Positions 15,910 through 19,017 of a stretch of DNA of 64,000 nucleotides are shown piece after piece; position 1 is the first letter of the stretch, and each line of letters starts with the position of its first letter. The position numbers were made by a program, and so were the translations under genes. The notes under the pieces are model-generated. The model had not been told where the DNA came from. It was given only the letters and a program-made list of their open reading frames with translations, and made no database searches. Source of the DNA: a virus. The DNA lies in the IMG/VR virus record IMGVR_UViG_3300045911_000155, positions 1-64,000 of that record; one strand, written 5' to 3'.

Positions 15910-16001
15910 TGGTAGTGGGACCGGGATTCGAACCCGGATCGTGCGCTAATCAGGCGCTTCCCGCTTATAAGGCGGTCGTTTTGCCGTTAAACTATCCCAC
16001 C
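15910..16001 (-). tRNA. tRNA-Ile(UAU) with long variable arm
   Basis: acceptor GGTGGGA/TCCCACT, loop CT-TAT-AA, V-arm GCGC-CTGATTA-GCGC, TTCGAAT, A-CCA. Confidence 0.85.
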
Positions 16002-16017
16002 GTGATATAATCGCGGA

Positions 16018-16491
16018 ATGGAACAGATTGGCCCCACAGGAAACTACGATCTTGGCGCGAAACTCAATGAGAATGATCGCGGCGGCTTGAATGTCGCAGT
16101 CACTATCGTCGAAGGACACATCCTCATGGTTTTCGGCACCCAACTCGATTGGCTGGCGGGTGGACCGGAACACATGCTGGCGGTCGGGATGCGGCTTGGT
16201 CAGTTGGCGTTGAAGTTGAGCAATGGTGCGATCAACTTCGACCAATTGAACCTTGCGGCGTTCGATAGTGTTGATGGGGACAATCAGTTGCCCGGCGGGA
16301 TTGAAGTGACACTCAATCGGGAGAAGGGTTTGATCGAAACCAAACTCCCGGCCAACGTCGAAGCGTTGGCGTTCACGGCGCAAGGGGCGTTCGCCTATGG
16401 ATTGCGGCTGATGATGTGTGTGAAGGTCTTGCGTCCTGATTTGGTTCCGTTCTTGCCGGATCTGCCCGAATCAGAATTGAAGAAGTGGTAG
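16018..16491 (+). CDS. hypothetical protein (leaderless)
   Basis: TATAAT 6 nt upstream of ATG; antisense to the tRNA operon. Confidence 0.65.
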   Translation: MEQIGPTGNYDLGAKLNENDRGGLNVAVTIVEGHILMVFGTQLDWLAGGPEHMLAVGMRLGQLALKLSNGAINFDQLNLAAFDSVDGDNQLPGGIEVTLNREKGLIETKLPANVEALAFTAQGAFAYGLRLMMCVKVLRPDLVPFLPDLPESELKKW

Positions 16492-16563
16492 GCGCGGGGA
16501 GACTCGAACTCCCAAACACCGAATTTTAAGGACGGTAGGTCTGCCTGTTCCCGTCACGCGCCC
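16486..16563 (-). tRNA. tRNA-Leu(UAA), short variable loop
   Basis: GGGCGCG/CGCGCCT, loop CT-TAA-AA, TTCGAGT, A-CCA; anticodon stem only 3 bp. Confidence 0.75.
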
Positions 16564-16850
16564 ACAGTTGGCAGTCCACGCATTTCCCGGCGCTCTTTCT
16601 CCGTGAAGGGGAGAGTCAGTTCCGCGTCTGCATCGATGCCGTGCAACACTTTCAGATCCTTCGCCAATTCCATCGTCCACGTTCCCTTTAGCTGACGCGC
16701 ACGCGGCTTGACCAGCACTTTCGTGACGGTCATCGGAAAATTGAGTGCTTCGCCGCCGGGGAGCGGTCGTATCAGCGGCTTGGCTTTCACCGTTGTGCCC
16801 GCGATGGCACCGGCGATCATTCCGAATAGTCCGCGACGTGTGAATTTCAT
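16554..16850 (-). CDS. Tat-like signal fused to a major-capsid-protein fragment
   Basis: MKFTRRGLF N-terminus; 20/35 ungapped identity to gp23 residues 194-228 of this window. Confidence 0.8.
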   Translation of the reverse strand: MKFTRRGLFGMIAGAIAGTTVKAKPLIRPLPGGEALNFPMTVTKVLVKPRARQLKGTWTMELAKDLKVLHGIDADAELTLPFTEKERREMRGLPTVGA

Positions 16851-16879
16851 TTGAATGCCTTTGGCTGAATGAGAGAAAT

Positions 16880-17233
16880 CTATTTGGTTTCGACCGGCAC
16901 ATCGGCCAGCAAGTCCAAGTACTTTTGCGGCACCATCGCCGGGTTGAGTACGATGGTCCGGTTCGCAAACATCAACGTGCCTTTGCGCGCCGTCAGCGTG
17001 ATCGGATGCTTCTTCGCCCATTCCGGGTCGTCATCATAGAAGCCGTCCCAATCGTCGTCCACGCCTTGCACCGTGATCCGGGCTTCGTCTTTGCGATAGG
17101 CGTTTTGTTTGATGCCGACGCGAACTACCTTGCCGATCCGAAGAGCGGCGCACCGGCCTAATGCGTGACCGTAGACGATGATCGCGCCCGGCTCAATCGG
17201 CTGTCCCATCTTGTCTTTGAGTGGTAGTTCCAT
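16880..17233 (-). CDS. hypothetical protein
   Basis: D..GQPIEPG..IVY motif; TAGAAT -10 upstream. Confidence 0.65.
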   Translation of the reverse strand: MELPLKDKMGQPIEPGAIIVYGHALGRCAALRIGKVVRVGIKQNAYRKDEARITVQGVDDDWDGFYDDDPEWAKKHPITLTARKGTLMFANRTIVLNPAMVPQKYLDLLADVPVETK

Positions 17234-17253
17234 TGATCCATTCTACGACGAAC

Positions 17254-17443
17254 TGGTGGGATAGCCGGGACTTGAACCCGGACAATGTTTTAGCATTGCG
17301 ACTTCAGGATACATTGGATCGGTTTGGCCGATCCCTACCCGCTTCCCTAGCGACCCTTACTCAGAGCCGGTTGGTGCATCTGGAACCCTACATCGCGCCC
17401 ACGCTCCGTTTTTCGTGCGCTCTGTCCGTTGAGCTACTATCCC
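17254..17443 (-). ncRNA. 190-nt tRNA-like RNA with large structured insertion
   Basis: acceptor GGGATAG/CTATCCC, D arm GCTC/GAGC, T arm CCGGG-TTCAAGT-CCCGG, A-CCA; about 135 nt lie between D and T arms. Confidence 0.8.
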
Positions 17444-17451
17444 AAATTCTT

Positions 17452-17540
17452 TGGTGGCGGAAAGGGGACTCGAACCCCTACGGTATTGCTACCACATGAC
17501 TCTCATTCATGCGCGGCTACCAAGATTACGCCATTCCGCC
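17452..17540 (-). tRNA. tRNA-Leu(GAG)
   Basis: cloverleaf, CATGA-ATGAGAG-TCATG, long V arm, CCA. Confidence 0.93.
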
Positions 17541-17547
17541 AAAGTGT

Positions 17548-17634
17548 TGGTCGCGGGAGTGGGACTCGAACCCACACGACATTTCTGCCACATGCTTCTG
17601 AGACATGCGTGGCTACCAATTACACCATCCCGCG
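17548..17634 (-). tRNA. tRNA-Leu(CAG)
   Basis: cloverleaf, loop CT-CAG-AA, CCA. Confidence 0.93.
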
Positions 17635-17637
17635 AAA

Positions 17638-17727
17638 AAAGACCAGAACTTTCATCATCCACCGTCAAGCGGTTTGCCCGCCGCAATTGTTTTGGGCCTT
17701 GGAATTAAACCAAGCGCTCTGATCTTT
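17638..17727 (-). ncRNA. structured spacer RNA, possible permuted tRNA-like (YrlA-type) fold
   Basis: 12-bp closing stem AAAGATCAGAGC/GTTCTGGTCTTT; internal T-arm-like CTTGG-TTTAATT-CCAAG. Confidence 0.45.
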
Positions 17728-17812
17728 TGGTGGCCGAAGAGAGACTTGAACTCTCACGCCCGAAGGCACCGGGTTTTGAATCCGGGGCGTCTGCCAATTC
17801 CGCCATTCGGCC
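17728..17812 (-). tRNA. tRNA-Leu(CAA)
   Basis: cloverleaf, loop TT-CAA-AA, CCA. Confidence 0.93.
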
Positions 17813-17912
17813 ATTTGTGGAAGCCTTTCACTTCACTTGACCATTCTGGATCGCCAGTATGATTACCCCGCCGATGAACGTTTCACTAGTACCGTGCATC
17901 GGAACATCGATT

Positions 17913-18000
17913 TGGTAGCGGGAGTGGGACTCGAACCCACACGACATTTCTGCCACTAATTTTTGAGACTAGCGCGGCTACCGGATTACGCCATCCCGCC
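17913..18000 (-). tRNA. tRNA-Leu(CAA), second copy
   Basis: cloverleaf, loop CT-CAA-AA; V/T arms identical to tRNA-Leu(CAG). Confidence 0.93.
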
Positions 18001-18004
18001 ATGT

Positions 18005-18220
18005 TCAACGATTTATCACACCCCATGAAGCTCCGCAAGGTGAAGTGGGGAAGCCGCACCCTTCGAGTTGATCCCGGACCCATTCAGCTTTCTGTTCGTT
18101 CGTCATTTTGCTGAAGTGATCTGAGTATTCTTTGCTGGTGACCAGCATCGTGATCTGAAAACAGATATCAACCAACTTCTGTTCCCGTCCTTCAGGTGTC
18201 AGTTCCGTTCGTGCGGCCAT
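18005..18220 (-). CDS. small hypothetical protein inside tRNA operon
   Basis: 71-aa ORF filling the spacer, AGGG SD. Confidence 0.55.
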   Translation of the reverse strand: MAARTELTPEGREQKLVDICFQITMLVTSKEYSDHFSKMTNEQKAEWVRDQLEGCGFPTSPCGASWGVINR

Positions 18221-18234
18221 GACCCTATTGTAGT

Positions 18235-18318
18235 TGGTGGGCGCGAAGGGATTCGAACCCTTACGCCGAAAGGCACTAGTTCCTAAGACTAGCGTGTCTG
18301 CCGTTCCACCACGCGCCC
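18235..18318 (-). tRNA. tRNA-Leu(UAG)
   Basis: cloverleaf, loop CT-TAG-GA, CCA. Confidence 0.94.
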
Positions 18319-18319
18319 G

Positions 18320-18397
18320 TGGTCGGATCTGATGGACGCTACCCATCTCCCATGTGTCCCCGATTTGGACACCGCGACCGCTTGTCGCTAAGACCCG
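18320..18397 (-). ncRNA. degenerate tRNA-Pro-like cloverleaf
   Basis: acceptor CGGGTCT/AGATCCG + A-CCA, 5-bp D stem, non-canonical T loop GTAGCGT. Confidence 0.7.
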
Positions 18398-18401
18398 TTA
18401 A

Positions 18402-18479
18402 AACCGTAAGCAAATTGAGTAGGCCACGGAATGTTTTTCAACCATAGAAAGATAACCATGACCAGTTCGGCTTACAGTT
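18402..18479 (-). ncRNA. Y-RNA-like hairpin
   Basis: 10-bp end stem AACTGTAAGC/GCTTACGGTT, then CGAA, second stem GGTCATGG/CCGTGGCC. Confidence 0.55.
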
Positions 18480-18557
18480 TGGTCTAGGTGGCGGGAATCG
18501 AACCCGCTTGAATGTCCTGTTCCCGAAACAGGCGGCTGACCTTTAGCCCACACCTAG
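18480..18557 (-). tRNA. tRNA-Pro(CGG)
   Basis: cloverleaf, loop TT-CGG-GA, C1-G72, A-CCA. Confidence 0.9.
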
Positions 18558-18580
18558 ATGAATCGTATCACAGCAAATAG

Positions 18581-18669
18581 TGGCAACGGATAGCGGGATT
18601 TGAACCCGCAGTGGCTTTTTAGGCCGACTGTTTTTGGACAGTTGTGTTTACCATTTCACGATAACCGTT
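18581..18669 (-). tRNA. atypical 8/5 tRNA-like RNA, G73, long V arm, 6-nt anticodon loop
   Basis: AACGGTTA/TATCCGTT acceptor, ACTGT-CCAAAA-ACAGT, GGC-CTAAAAA-GCC, TTCAAAT, G-CCA. Confidence 0.7.
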
Positions 18670-18692
18670 ATCCGTCCGGCTGTGACACGATT

Positions 18693-18769
18693 TGGTCGGG
18701 AAGGCGGGAATCGAACCCGCTCGATGTCCTGTCCCCCAGACAGGCGGCTCACCTTTAGCCCACTTCCCG
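18693..18769 (-). tRNA. tRNA-Pro(GGG)
   Basis: cloverleaf, loop CT-GGG-GG, CCA. Confidence 0.92.
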
Positions 18770-18858
18770 AATGCGCGGACAAACATCGTCCGCAAAACTC
18801 GTTTCTCTCATTCAGTTGTCAAATACCAGTTGCTCTCATCGTCTGCACGATGTCGGCT

Positions 18859-18934
18859 TGGTCGGGGACACGGGACTCGAACCCGCATCTTCCTGTACCC
18901 AAAACAGGTGGCTTACCAATTAGCCAAATCCCCG
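18859..18934 (-). tRNA. tRNA-Pro(UGG)
   Basis: cloverleaf, loop TT-TGG-GT, CCA. Confidence 0.93.
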
Positions 18935-18940
18935 AAAGAT

Positions 18941-19017
18941 TGGTCGGGCATGCAGGATTTGAACCTGCGACTTCACCGTCCCGAACGGTGCGCTCTACCA
19001 AGCTGAGCCAATGCCCG
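18941..19017 (-). tRNA. tRNA-Pro(CGG), second copy
   Basis: canonical cloverleaf, loop TT-CGG-GA, CCA. Confidence 0.95.

What the first reader, a model, noticed from the sequence alone, without database searches (positions are those of the whole stretch)
17254..17443. 190-nt tRNA scaffold carrying a large structured insert instead of a normal anticodon/variable region
Seen: perfect 7-bp acceptor, D arm, T arm and A-CCA. Between the D and T arms lie about 135 nt: a CACG/CGTG hairpin with a 10-nt loop lacking U33, and nested stems (GCGA/UCGC, GGAUCGG/CCGAUCC, CAAUG/CAUUG). It is not tmRNA (no G3-U70, has a D stem) and is too short for a group I intron. Known analogy: the T4 tRNA cluster yields non-tRNA stable species (RNA C/D). 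Inference: a tRNA-scaffolded functional RNA such as a decoy, aptamer or T-box/RelA/nuclease ligand.
Basis: seen in the sequence. Interest (0 to 1): 0.75.

Follow-up and report, generated by a model that had tools for sequence, protein, structure and literature searches.

The report
Non-decoding tRNA-shaped RNA, giant arm
This phage gene makes a 190-base RNA with a complete tRNA outline that cannot read codons and carries a large conserved extra arm; it belongs to a widespread, uncatalogued and untested RNA family. In bacteria that family sits in RNA-repair operons, and in phages it sits in tRNA gene clusters.

Summary
Window 17254-17443 (minus strand) has a perfect acceptor stem, D arm, T arm and encoded ACCA. 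One detail needs correcting. The anticodon-arm position is still occupied by an 18-nt hairpin, and the large domain (about 100 nt) sits where the variable arm belongs.

It is not an assembly artefact, an intron or a one-off. A covariance model built from relatives scores it 85 bits (E 6e-21), whereas ordinary tRNAs score 41 bits or less. Members occur in at least 23 Streptomyces phage records, in IMG/VR contigs and in at least 120 bacterial species. Covariation supports the acceptor stem, the hairpin, the long-range stem and the T arm.

In bacteria the gene lies beside Band-7/SPFH, RtcB, Ro60, RlaP and WYL-regulator genes, often just after tRNA arrays. Several phages that carry it encode Ro60 or Band-7.

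The closest known RNAs are the predicted band-7-associated tRNA (2016) and YrlA Y RNAs. The architecture here differs from YrlA, and no Rfam family matches beyond the tRNA scaffold.

The function is inferred only: most likely a protein-binding adaptor or decoy in tRNA damage and repair conflicts. This scan has met the same family before on other DNA.

The parts
17254..17443 (-). Whole RNA gene: 187 nt plus encoded CCA
   Evidence: Sequence. Rfam tRNA model 36.1 bits on the isolated region. Family model R1 85.2 bits, E 6e-21.
17437..17443 (-). Acceptor stem, 5' strand (GGGAUAG)
   Evidence: 7 of 7 pairs with 17258-17264. The acceptor stem covaries across the family.
17419..17434 (-). D arm (GCUC / GAGC, loop with GG and A)
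17400..17417 (-). 18-nt hairpin at the anticodon-arm position. Its loop holds AAAACGGA (17405-17412), which is invariant in the phage members. There is no U33 and no 7-nt loop.
   Evidence: All 5 stem pairs covary in the phage alignment. Bacterial members keep AAAA...CG(R)A with an insert in between.
17392..17396 (-). Long-range stem P2, 5' strand (GCGAU); base of the variable-position domain
   Evidence: Pairs with 17298-17302. P2 covaries at 5 of 6 pairs in phages and 6 of 6 in bacteria.
17369..17387 (-). Conserved core, 5' strand (GG UU CC AGAU GCACC AACC)
   Evidence: Near-invariant across phages and bacteria. The C in UUCC pairs with the G in GCGGGU, where most members have G with C.
17352..17368 (-). 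Terminal hairpin of the domain (GGCUC / GGGUC, variable loop)
   Evidence: All 5 pairs covary in the bacterial set. Replaced by a branched extension in Gilson-type phages.
17337..17351 (-). Conserved core, 3' strand (GC UAGGGAAGCG GGU)
   Evidence: UAGGGAAGCG is invariant in the 12 sequences of alignment A1; Gilson-type phages have CAGGGAAGCG. It was part of the pattern that found the bacterial members.
17316..17334 (-). Lineage-specific extra hairpin (GGAUCGG / CCGAUCC) inserted in an internal loop of the domain
   Evidence: Present only in the window and its close relative L010; 7 perfect pairs.
17298..17311 (-). Closing strands of the domain: UAUCC (pairs with GG of the core), linker UGAA, and P2 3' strand GUCGC
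17284..17297 (-). Small lineage-specific hairpin (AAUG / CAUU) just before the T arm
   Evidence: JustBecause and L029 have a GAAA-capped hairpin here; most other members have none.
17265..17281 (-). T arm (CCGGG UUCAAGU CCCGG)
   Evidence: The T stem covaries at 4 of 5 pairs.
17254..17264 (-). Acceptor stem 3' strand (CUAUCCC), discriminator A and encoded CCA
   Evidence: ARAGORN's spans for neighbouring tRNAs reach 3 nt beyond the Rfam tRNA matches, which fits an encoded CCA there too.
17452..19017 (-). Upstream run of ten tRNA genes on the same strand: four Pro, one odd call and five Leu. tRNA-Leu(gag) lies 8 nt upstream of this RNA.
   Evidence: Gilson-type Streptomyces phages show the same order, a tRNA-Leu (gag in MeganTheeKilla) followed by this RNA.

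Best explanation
Shown: this is a real gene for a stable, non-decoding RNA with a full tRNA body. It has an acceptor stem, a D arm, a T arm, the elbow nucleotides, discriminator A and CCA. The anticodon-position hairpin has an 8-10-nt loop without U33. The variable-arm position holds a long, irregular, highly conserved rod. The RNA belongs to a family found in phage tRNA clusters and, in bacteria, inside RNA-repair operons (WYL regulator, Ro60, this RNA, a leader RNA, Band-7/SPFH, RtcB, RlaP), often right after tRNA arrays.

Inferred: the tRNA body lets RNase P, RNase Z and the CCA-adding enzyme cut the RNA out of the tRNA transcript and keeps it stable. The invariant internal loops of the rod bind a conserved protein partner. 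The RNA would then act as an adaptor or cofactor of the tRNA damage-and-repair response, as Y RNA does for Ro60. The phage would carry it together with spare tRNAs to survive host nucleases that cut tRNAs. The partner is not identified.
For: Scaffold.

Family membership and separation from ordinary tRNAs: 85 bits for the window against 41 bits or less for ordinary tRNAs in the phage loci.

Relatives: Streptomyces phages, always among tRNA genes or, in Moab, among small CDSs and miscalled as part of one; IMG/VR contigs.

Covariation: 95% of cells paired and 23 pairs with double changes in 10 phage sequences; 92.5% paired and 31 such pairs in 79 bacterial matches; slid controls reach only 29-48%.

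Bacterial members: 78 of the 80 loci searched with the model, out of at least 120 matching stretches.

Neighbours in those loci: Band_7 in 42, RtcB in 27, WYL in 21, TROVE in 14, RlaP in 12. Of 24 loci with enough flank, 20 have a repair gene.

tRNA arrays of 11-20 genes lie directly upstream in many loci.

Phage links:
- A 224-kb near-identical relative of this phage encodes Ro60.
- In one contig the RNA lies about 1 kb from Ro60.
- Comrade-like and Gilson phages have Band-7 1.6-2 kb upstream, plus RNA ligase and PNK.
- The Alone3, JustBecause and Kela groups encode Ro-like proteins.

The literature predicts tRNA-like partner RNAs for Band-7 and Ro60 in such systems.
Against: No expression, processing or binding data exist for any member.

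The window's own record (47% complete) has no Band_7, RtcB, TROVE, RlaP or RNA_ligase gene. One complete 153-kb phage with a member lacks Band_7, RtcB, TROVE and RNA_ligase.

Only 11 of 50 bacterial genomes with the RNA encode Ro60, so Ro60 cannot be the general partner. No single co-encoded protein is universal.

The comparative structure is 14.5 kcal/mol above the computed minimum free energy.
Confidence: 0.55

Rival explanations
1. Decoy or competitive inhibitor. The RNA presents a tRNA body to host enzymes that cut or modify tRNAs (anticodon nucleases, acceptor-end toxins), soaks them up and so spares the real tRNAs. No dedicated partner protein is needed.
For: The RNA has a full tRNA outline with an altered, non-decoding loop. 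It travels with spare tRNA sets in phages and bacteria. It occurs in phages that encode none of the repair proteins searched for. [quoted passage not shown]
Against: A plain decoy would not need a roughly 35-nt core kept nearly invariant from actinophages to Bacteroidota and Myxococcota. The tight operon link to Band-7, RtcB and Ro60 points to a partner.
Confidence: 0.25
2. A chargeable tRNA-like carrier. The RNA is aminoacylated at its CCA end and delivers an amino acid, or itself, to a non-standard acceptor or to the ribosome, as tmRNA does.
For: Open acceptor end, discriminator A in most members, and CCA encoded here and in a few bacterial members. The phage members' loop AAAACGGA shares ACGGA with phage tRNA-Arg(ACG) loops (CUACGGA), and tRNA-Arg genes are the best-scoring ordinary tRNAs against the model.
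Against: Bacterial members carry up to about 11 extra bases between AAAA and CG(R)A, so ACG is not a conserved anticodon. Acceptor sequences vary freely, so no fixed identity set is visible. There is no G3-U70 pair and no coding segment.
Confidence: 0.07
3. An intron-containing tRNA gene. The insert is removed to give a normal decoding tRNA.
For: Only the tRNA outline and the position among tRNA genes.
Against: The insert is not in the anticodon loop. Removing it would still leave an 8-10-nt loop without U33. No group I intron match was found at E up to 10. Alone3 annotates tRNAs for 19 amino acids in its first 20 kb without this gene. Contigs carrying the locus show only the unspliced form, although these may be DNA.
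Confidence: 0.03
4. A dead tRNA gene disrupted by an insertion, or an assembly chimera.
For: None beyond the unusual length.
Against: The same architecture is kept, with compensatory changes, in phages and in several bacterial phyla. Independent metagenome runs carry the identical locus.
Confidence: 0.01

Closest known systems
[quoted passage not shown]
   Same: Both are tRNA-like non-coding RNAs of RtcB/Band-7 RNA-repair operons, sometimes next to Ro60. Bacterial members of this family lie on the same strand just upstream of Band-7 genes in 42 loci. Both are predicted only and never tested.
   Different: I could not read the 2016 paper, so identity is unproven. In Bacteroidota a further 550-950 nt lies between this RNA and the Band-7 gene, usually with two more T-loop motifs. 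That stretch may be the published b7a-tRNA instead. The window's copy sits in a phage tRNA cluster with no Band-7 gene in the record.
YrlA and other bacterial and phage Y RNAs, partners of Ro60/Rsr (Rfam RF02553; Chen et al. 2014, PMC4201824)
   Same: Both are two-module RNAs with a tRNA-like body and a protein-binding rod. Both occur in rsr/rtcB operons and in phages with Ro60. The D arm is similar (UAGCUCA...AGAGC). Most members' rods contain CGAAUG, as does the GNCGAAN0-1G Ro60 motif of YrlA.
   Different: The topology differs. YrlA has its ends in the Ro60-binding stem and a closed acceptor stem. Here the ends are true tRNA ends with CCA, and the rod leaves from the variable-arm position. 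The Rfam YrlA model gives no match. The window itself has CAACCG in place of CGAAUG. Only 11 of 50 host genomes encode Ro60. Alone3 has a separate YrlA-like candidate next to its Ro gene.
Class II tRNAs (Leu, Ser, Tyr, Sec) with long variable arms
   Same: A helical arm emerges between the anticodon stem and the T stem, followed by 0-2 unpaired bases.
   Different: The arm here is about 100 nt long with invariant internal loops, and the RNA has no usable anticodon loop.
tmRNA
   Same: A tRNA-like end combined with a large structured domain.
   Different: This RNA has a D stem. It has no G3-U70 pair and no tag reading frame. The only tmRNA-type hit is an 8.6-bit match of the permuted-tmRNA model.
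Phage T4 stable RNAs rnaC and rnaD (species 1 and 2)
   Same: Non-tRNA stable RNAs encoded at the end of a phage tRNA cluster. rnaC ends in a T arm.
   Different: They are not homologous. The best hit of the family model on rnaC scores 17 bits, rnaD gives only a 0-bit fragment, and no conserved core is present.

Membership tests
Giant-variable-arm tRNA-shaped RNA family (defined here by model R1) | Complete tRNA scaffold with open acceptor end | tested here: met
   7-bp acceptor stem, D arm, T arm and ACCA.
Giant-variable-arm tRNA-shaped RNA family (defined here by model R1) | Hairpin at the anticodon-arm position whose loop starts with AAAA, ends with CG(R)A and lacks U33 | tested here: met
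   CACG-AAAAACGGAG-CGUG.
Giant-variable-arm tRNA-shaped RNA family (defined here by model R1) | Variable-position rod closed by a covarying long-range stem, with the core UU-S-C-R-GA-N-GCACC ... UAGGGAAGCG-S-GU | tested here: met
   All 50 model pairs are standard pairs in the window. The core is aligned.
Giant-variable-arm tRNA-shaped RNA family (defined here by model R1) | Model score clearly above ordinary tRNAs | tested here: met
   85.2 bits, E 6e-21, against 41 bits or less for ordinary tRNAs in the phage loci.
Giant-variable-arm tRNA-shaped RNA family (defined here by model R1) | Lies among tRNA genes and/or next to Band-7, RtcB or Ro60 genes | tested here: met
   8 nt downstream of tRNA-Leu(gag) in a tRNA cluster. 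No repair gene was found in the 47%-complete record, but the 224-kb close relative encodes Ro60.
b7a-tRNA (Burroughs and Aravind 2016) | tRNA-like RNA encoded adjacent to a Band-7 gene in RtcB operons | tested here: inconclusive
   True of the bacterial relatives, but another tRNA-like leader lies between them and Band-7. The published alignment could not be read. The window record has no Band-7 gene.
YrlA (RF02553) | Match to the Rfam model; ends in the Ro60-binding stem; closed acceptor stem-loop | tested here: not met
   No YrlA match at E up to 10. The ends are at the acceptor stem.
Decoding tRNA (RF00005) | Cloverleaf with a 7-nt anticodon loop, U33 and a purine at 37 | tested here: not met
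   The scaffold matches at 36.1 bits, but the anticodon arm is replaced in the alignment. The loop is 8-10 nt without U33. ARAGORN makes no call.
tRNA gene with a group I intron | Intron in the anticodon loop with a group I catalytic core | tested here: not met
   No group I intron hit at E up to 10. The insert lies after the anticodon-position hairpin.
tmRNA | No D stem, G3-U70 pair, tag reading frame, pseudoknots | tested here: not met
   ARAGORN finds no tmRNA. A D stem is present and position 3 pairs G-C.

The most novel reading that the evidence does not exclude
This family is a third, uncatalogued design of tRNA-mimic partner RNA for RNA-repair systems, distinct from YrlA and from the Band-7 leader modules. 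It would be a true end-processed, CCA-bearing tRNA body whose variable arm has become an invariant protein-binding rod. Its partner would be a factor shared by phages and bacteria of many phyla, for example an RtcB-type ligase or another universal RNA enzyme. Phages would have taken it up with their tRNA arrays as a counter-defence tool.
Probability: 0.3. Interest if true: 0.75.

Novelty: new variant of a known kind. Interest (0 to 1): 0.52.

Why it matters
tRNA-cutting nucleases are a major battleground between bacteria and phages, and RtcB/Ro60/Band-7 repair modules are their least understood counterpart. This RNA family is widespread, strongly conserved, absent from Rfam and routinely missed or miscalled. 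In Comrade and Gilson-type phage records it is annotated as part of a hypothetical protein.

Cultured Streptomyces phages carry it, so a long-standing prediction becomes testable at the bench: that repair scaffolds work with tRNA-like RNAs. The partner and role could be found by pull-down and phage gene deletion. At the least, a family model would correct the annotation of many phage and bacterial genomes.

Tried and rejected
- **Rfam.** No family other than the tRNA scaffold matched, in either gathering or permissive mode, on the window or on the bacterial members.
- **ARAGORN.** No call.
- **Folding energy.** Not significant on its own.
- **tRNA-Arg(ACG) origin.** Attractive for the phage members, but the bacterial loops carry inserts between AAAA and CG(R)A. 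I dropped it as a general reading.
- **T4 rnaC and rnaD.** Not members.
- **Ro60 as the obligate partner.** Rejected, because only 11 of 50 bacterial genomes with the RNA have a TROVE protein and one complete phage has none.
- **Expression.** No RNA holder was listed for this locus. Contigs from two wastewater runs labelled RNA-Seq (possibly DNA) carry the gene whole, and no joint lies inside it. This says nothing firm about splicing or transcription.
- **Flanking ORFs.** Pfam and PHROGs gave nothing informative.
- **Promoter and terminator scan.** Nothing usable.
- **Literature.** The 2016 paper and the 2020 review were not held. Searches for a description of this exact RNA found none.
- **Automatic model alignment.** It places the window's closing strands on the lineage-specific hairpin. 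I used the manual register, in which all pairs are standard.

Full report
**The observation**

The window is part of an 80.5-kb IMG/VR virus record, about 47% complete and about 55% G+C. Eleven ARAGORN and twelve Rfam tRNA calls lie on the minus strand between 15.9 and 19.0 kb. Neither tool calls 17254-17443.

The minus strand nevertheless reads as a tRNA outline:
- a perfect 7-bp acceptor stem;
- U8-A9;
- a GCUC/GAGC D arm with GG in its loop;
- a CCGGG/CCCGG T arm with loop UUCAAGU;
- discriminator A and an encoded CCA.

When the region is searched alone, the Rfam tRNA model matches 17257-17443 at 36.1 bits, against a cut-off of 29. In that alignment 115 nt stand where the model's 17 anticodon-arm positions belong. 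No intron, YrlA or convincing tmRNA match appears at E up to 10.

One correction is needed. The CACG/CGUG hairpin is 18 nt long, follows position 26 directly and so occupies the anticodon-arm slot. The large domain starts after it, in the variable-arm slot.

**Relatives**

A distant blastn search found the first 100 nt at about 75% identity in Streptomyces phages. In Alone3 and JustBecause the match lies in unannotated gaps inside tRNA clusters. Each copy is framed by its own, different acceptor and T stems.

A motif scan of IMG/VR added ten more true members, including a near-identical copy on a 224-kb contig. A second blastn search raised the named phages to 23 records: the Comrade, Gilson, Alone3 and JustBecause groups. 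In the Comrade and Gilson groups the RNA lies under a CDS called hypothetical protein.

**Structure**

Alignment and RNAalifold gave one consistent model:
- the tRNA scaffold;
- a hairpin, P1, with an 8-nt loop AAAACGGA that is invariant in the phage members;
- a long-range stem, P2, closing one long irregular rod.

Reading inward, the rod consists of these elements:
- an internal loop, then a GG:CC step;
- a three-pair helix, U-S-C with G-S-G (S = G or C). Here G-C switches to C-G in the window, in its relative and in one AT-rich contig;
- a G-C pair;
- a 3x3 loop (A-N-G opposite A-A-G);
- a C(A)CC:GGG helix;
- a 4x4 loop;
- a terminal hairpin with a free loop.

On 10 phage sequences, 95% of cells are paired and 23 of 41 pairs show changes on both sides. 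Slid controls reach only 29-48%. The innermost helices never vary, so they are neither supported nor contradicted.

A covariance model built on this structure scores family members at 85-174 bits. The window scores 85.2 bits (E 6e-21). Ordinary tRNAs in the phage loci score 41 bits or less.

In the window all 50 pairs of the manual model are standard pairs. The model lies 14.5 kcal/mol above the thermodynamic optimum, as expected for a fold rich in non-canonical loops.

The window's copy has two lineage-specific additions. One is a perfect 7-bp hairpin set into an internal loop of the rod. The other is a small hairpin before the T arm. Both are shared only with its close relative.

**The family in bacteria**

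Most are Bacteroidota. The rest include Myxococcota, Proteobacteria, a Ruminococcus, a Longimicrobium and a Peribacteria genome.

I searched 80 of these loci with the model. It recovers full-length members of 170-213 nt in 78 of them. Covariation there is strong: 7 of 7 acceptor pairs, 6 of 6 P2 pairs, 5 of 5 terminal-hairpin pairs, and 92.5% of cells paired.

Clustering the flanking ORFs and scanning them with Pfam showed the context:

| Neighbour | Loci | Position relative to the RNA |
|---|---|---|
| Band_7/SPFH | 42 | downstream, same strand in 39 |
| RtcB | 27 | mostly downstream |
| WYL regulator | 21 | divergent, upstream |
| RNaseH-like protein (PF04308) | 21 | upstream |
| TROVE/Ro60 | 14 | mostly directly upstream |
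| RlaP | 12 | with RtcB |

Of 24 loci with enough flank, 20 hold at least one of Band-7, RtcB, Ro60 or RlaP. Many loci also have arrays of 11-20 ordinary tRNA genes directly upstream.

**Links in phages**

- Alone3 has a Ro-like gene 3 kb from its copy, and an RNA ligase.
- Gilson has Band-7 about 1.8 kb upstream, and RNA ligase and PNK downstream.
- A Comrade-like complete genome has TROVE, Band-7, the RNA and an RNA ligase.
- One contig has the RNA about 1 kb from TROVE.
- The 224-kb relative of this window's phage encodes TROVE.
- The JustBecause and Kela group encodes a Ro-like protein. Only 50 of 50,697 phage records match at that threshold.

Three results count against a fixed partner. 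The window's own partial record has none of these genes. One complete 153-kb phage lacks Band_7, RtcB, TROVE and RNA_ligase. Only 11 of 50 bacterial genomes with the RNA encode Ro60.

**What is known**

Chen et al. 2014 described YrlA Y RNAs, which combine a Ro60-binding stem with a tRNA-like domain. Wang et al. 2018 report that Burroughs and Aravind (2016) predicted a band-7-associated tRNA next to RtcB. It is sometimes found next to Rsr and was never validated. Iyer et al. 2021 note Ro/TROVE with a tRNA-like partner in jumbo phages.

I could not read the 2016 paper, so I cannot say whether its b7a-tRNA is this RNA. In Bacteroidota a further 550-950 nt separates this RNA from the Band-7 start codon, usually with two more T-loop motifs. 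Earlier notes of this scan describe that stretch as a structured leader with tandem tRNA-like modules, and it may be the published entity.

The present RNA differs from YrlA in topology. It has real tRNA ends, and the rod leaves from the variable position. The Rfam YrlA model does not match it. Most members share a CGAAUG stretch with the YrlA Ro60 motif; the window has CAACCG there.

Earlier agents of this scan met the same giant-armed family on other DNA and also found it uncatalogued.

**Mechanism**

Shown: a conserved, structured, non-decoding tRNA-shaped RNA that travels with tRNA arrays and RNA-repair genes.

Inferred: the tRNA body gives processing and stability, and the invariant rod binds a conserved partner. 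The RNA then acts as an adaptor or cofactor in the response to tRNA damage (confidence 0.55).

The main rival is a decoy for tRNA-targeting enzymes (0.25). That reading fits phages that encode none of the repair proteins searched for, but it does not explain the invariant core.

Other readings:
- A chargeable carrier is possible but weak. Phage tRNA-Arg(ACG) loops read CUACGGA, which resembles AAAACGGA, and tRNA-Arg genes score best against the model. The bacterial loops, however, carry inserts.
- Splicing to a normal tRNA is very unlikely.
- Decay or misassembly is excluded by the conservation.

**Verdict**

It is not a singular invention of this phage. It is a member of a widespread but uncatalogued family that belongs to the known theme of tRNA-like partner RNAs of RNA-repair systems, in a distinct architecture. 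Function and partner remain open, and cultured Streptomyces phages make them testable.

Noticed in passing
window 15910-16001 (-): ARAGORN calls a 92-nt tRNA-Ile(UAU). It has a long variable arm (class II shape), which is unusual for isoleucine. Rfam tRNA score 60 bits.
   Followed up: partly
window 18581-18669 (-): An 89-nt tRNA that ARAGORN calls 'tRNA-???'. Its anticodon loop is CCAAAAA (no U33) and it has a long variable arm. Rfam tRNA score 42.6 bits. It may be another non-standard tRNA in the cluster.
   Followed up: partly
window 16489-16563 (-): A tRNA found only by Rfam (34.6 bits), sitting between small ORFs. ARAGORN does not call it.
   Followed up: no
window 17452-19017 (-): The tRNA run is ordered by amino acid: four Pro then five Leu. 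All called anticodons end in G except Leu(caa), which appears twice. A Pararhizobium array (L045) holding a divergent member is likewise rich in Leu, Pro and His tRNAs.
   Followed up: no
L031 (Streptomyces phage Alone3) 13113-13345; 10582-10696; 18022-18147: Three items in the tRNA cluster: a manA-like RNA match below the Rfam cut-off (47.8 bits against 55.2), a weak YrlA-like candidate upstream of the Ro-like gene, and a 126-nt tRNA-like gene with an insert.
   Followed up: partly
L049 4772-4913 (-): In a Cyclobacteriaceae genome the order is Ro60 gene, the giant-armed RNA, then a second RNA with a T arm. That second RNA weakly matches the Deinococcus Y RNA model (28 bits, E 0.007).
   Followed up: no
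Bacterial loci, e.g. L038, L039, L043, L068: 550-950 nt between the RNA and the Band-7 start: This gap usually holds two further T-loop motifs about 65-85 nt apart. That fits a second structured leader RNA with tandem tRNA-like modules directly upstream of Band-7.
   Followed up: partly
L048 5504-5616; L099 5366-5560; L059 5686-5841; L036 6495-6649; L043 2769-2935; L074 2336-2448: Further over-long tRNA-like matches (113-195 nt, 35-46 bits) lie near the giant-armed RNA in Bacteroidota repair loci. They may be additional odd tRNA-shaped RNAs.
   Followed up: no
Streptomyces phages Comrade, SparkleGoddess, Belfort, Stigma, Karp, Francob, Gilson, Moab and others: GenBank lists a hypothetical-protein CDS under the blastn match to this RNA. 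In Moab that CDS covers most of the RNA gene.
   Followed up: partly
window 16800-18100: Near-identical DNA occurs in hot-spring and microbial-mat runs, and partly in wastewater, activated-sludge and lake-water runs. Some of these may be the sample the window was assembled from.
   Followed up: partly
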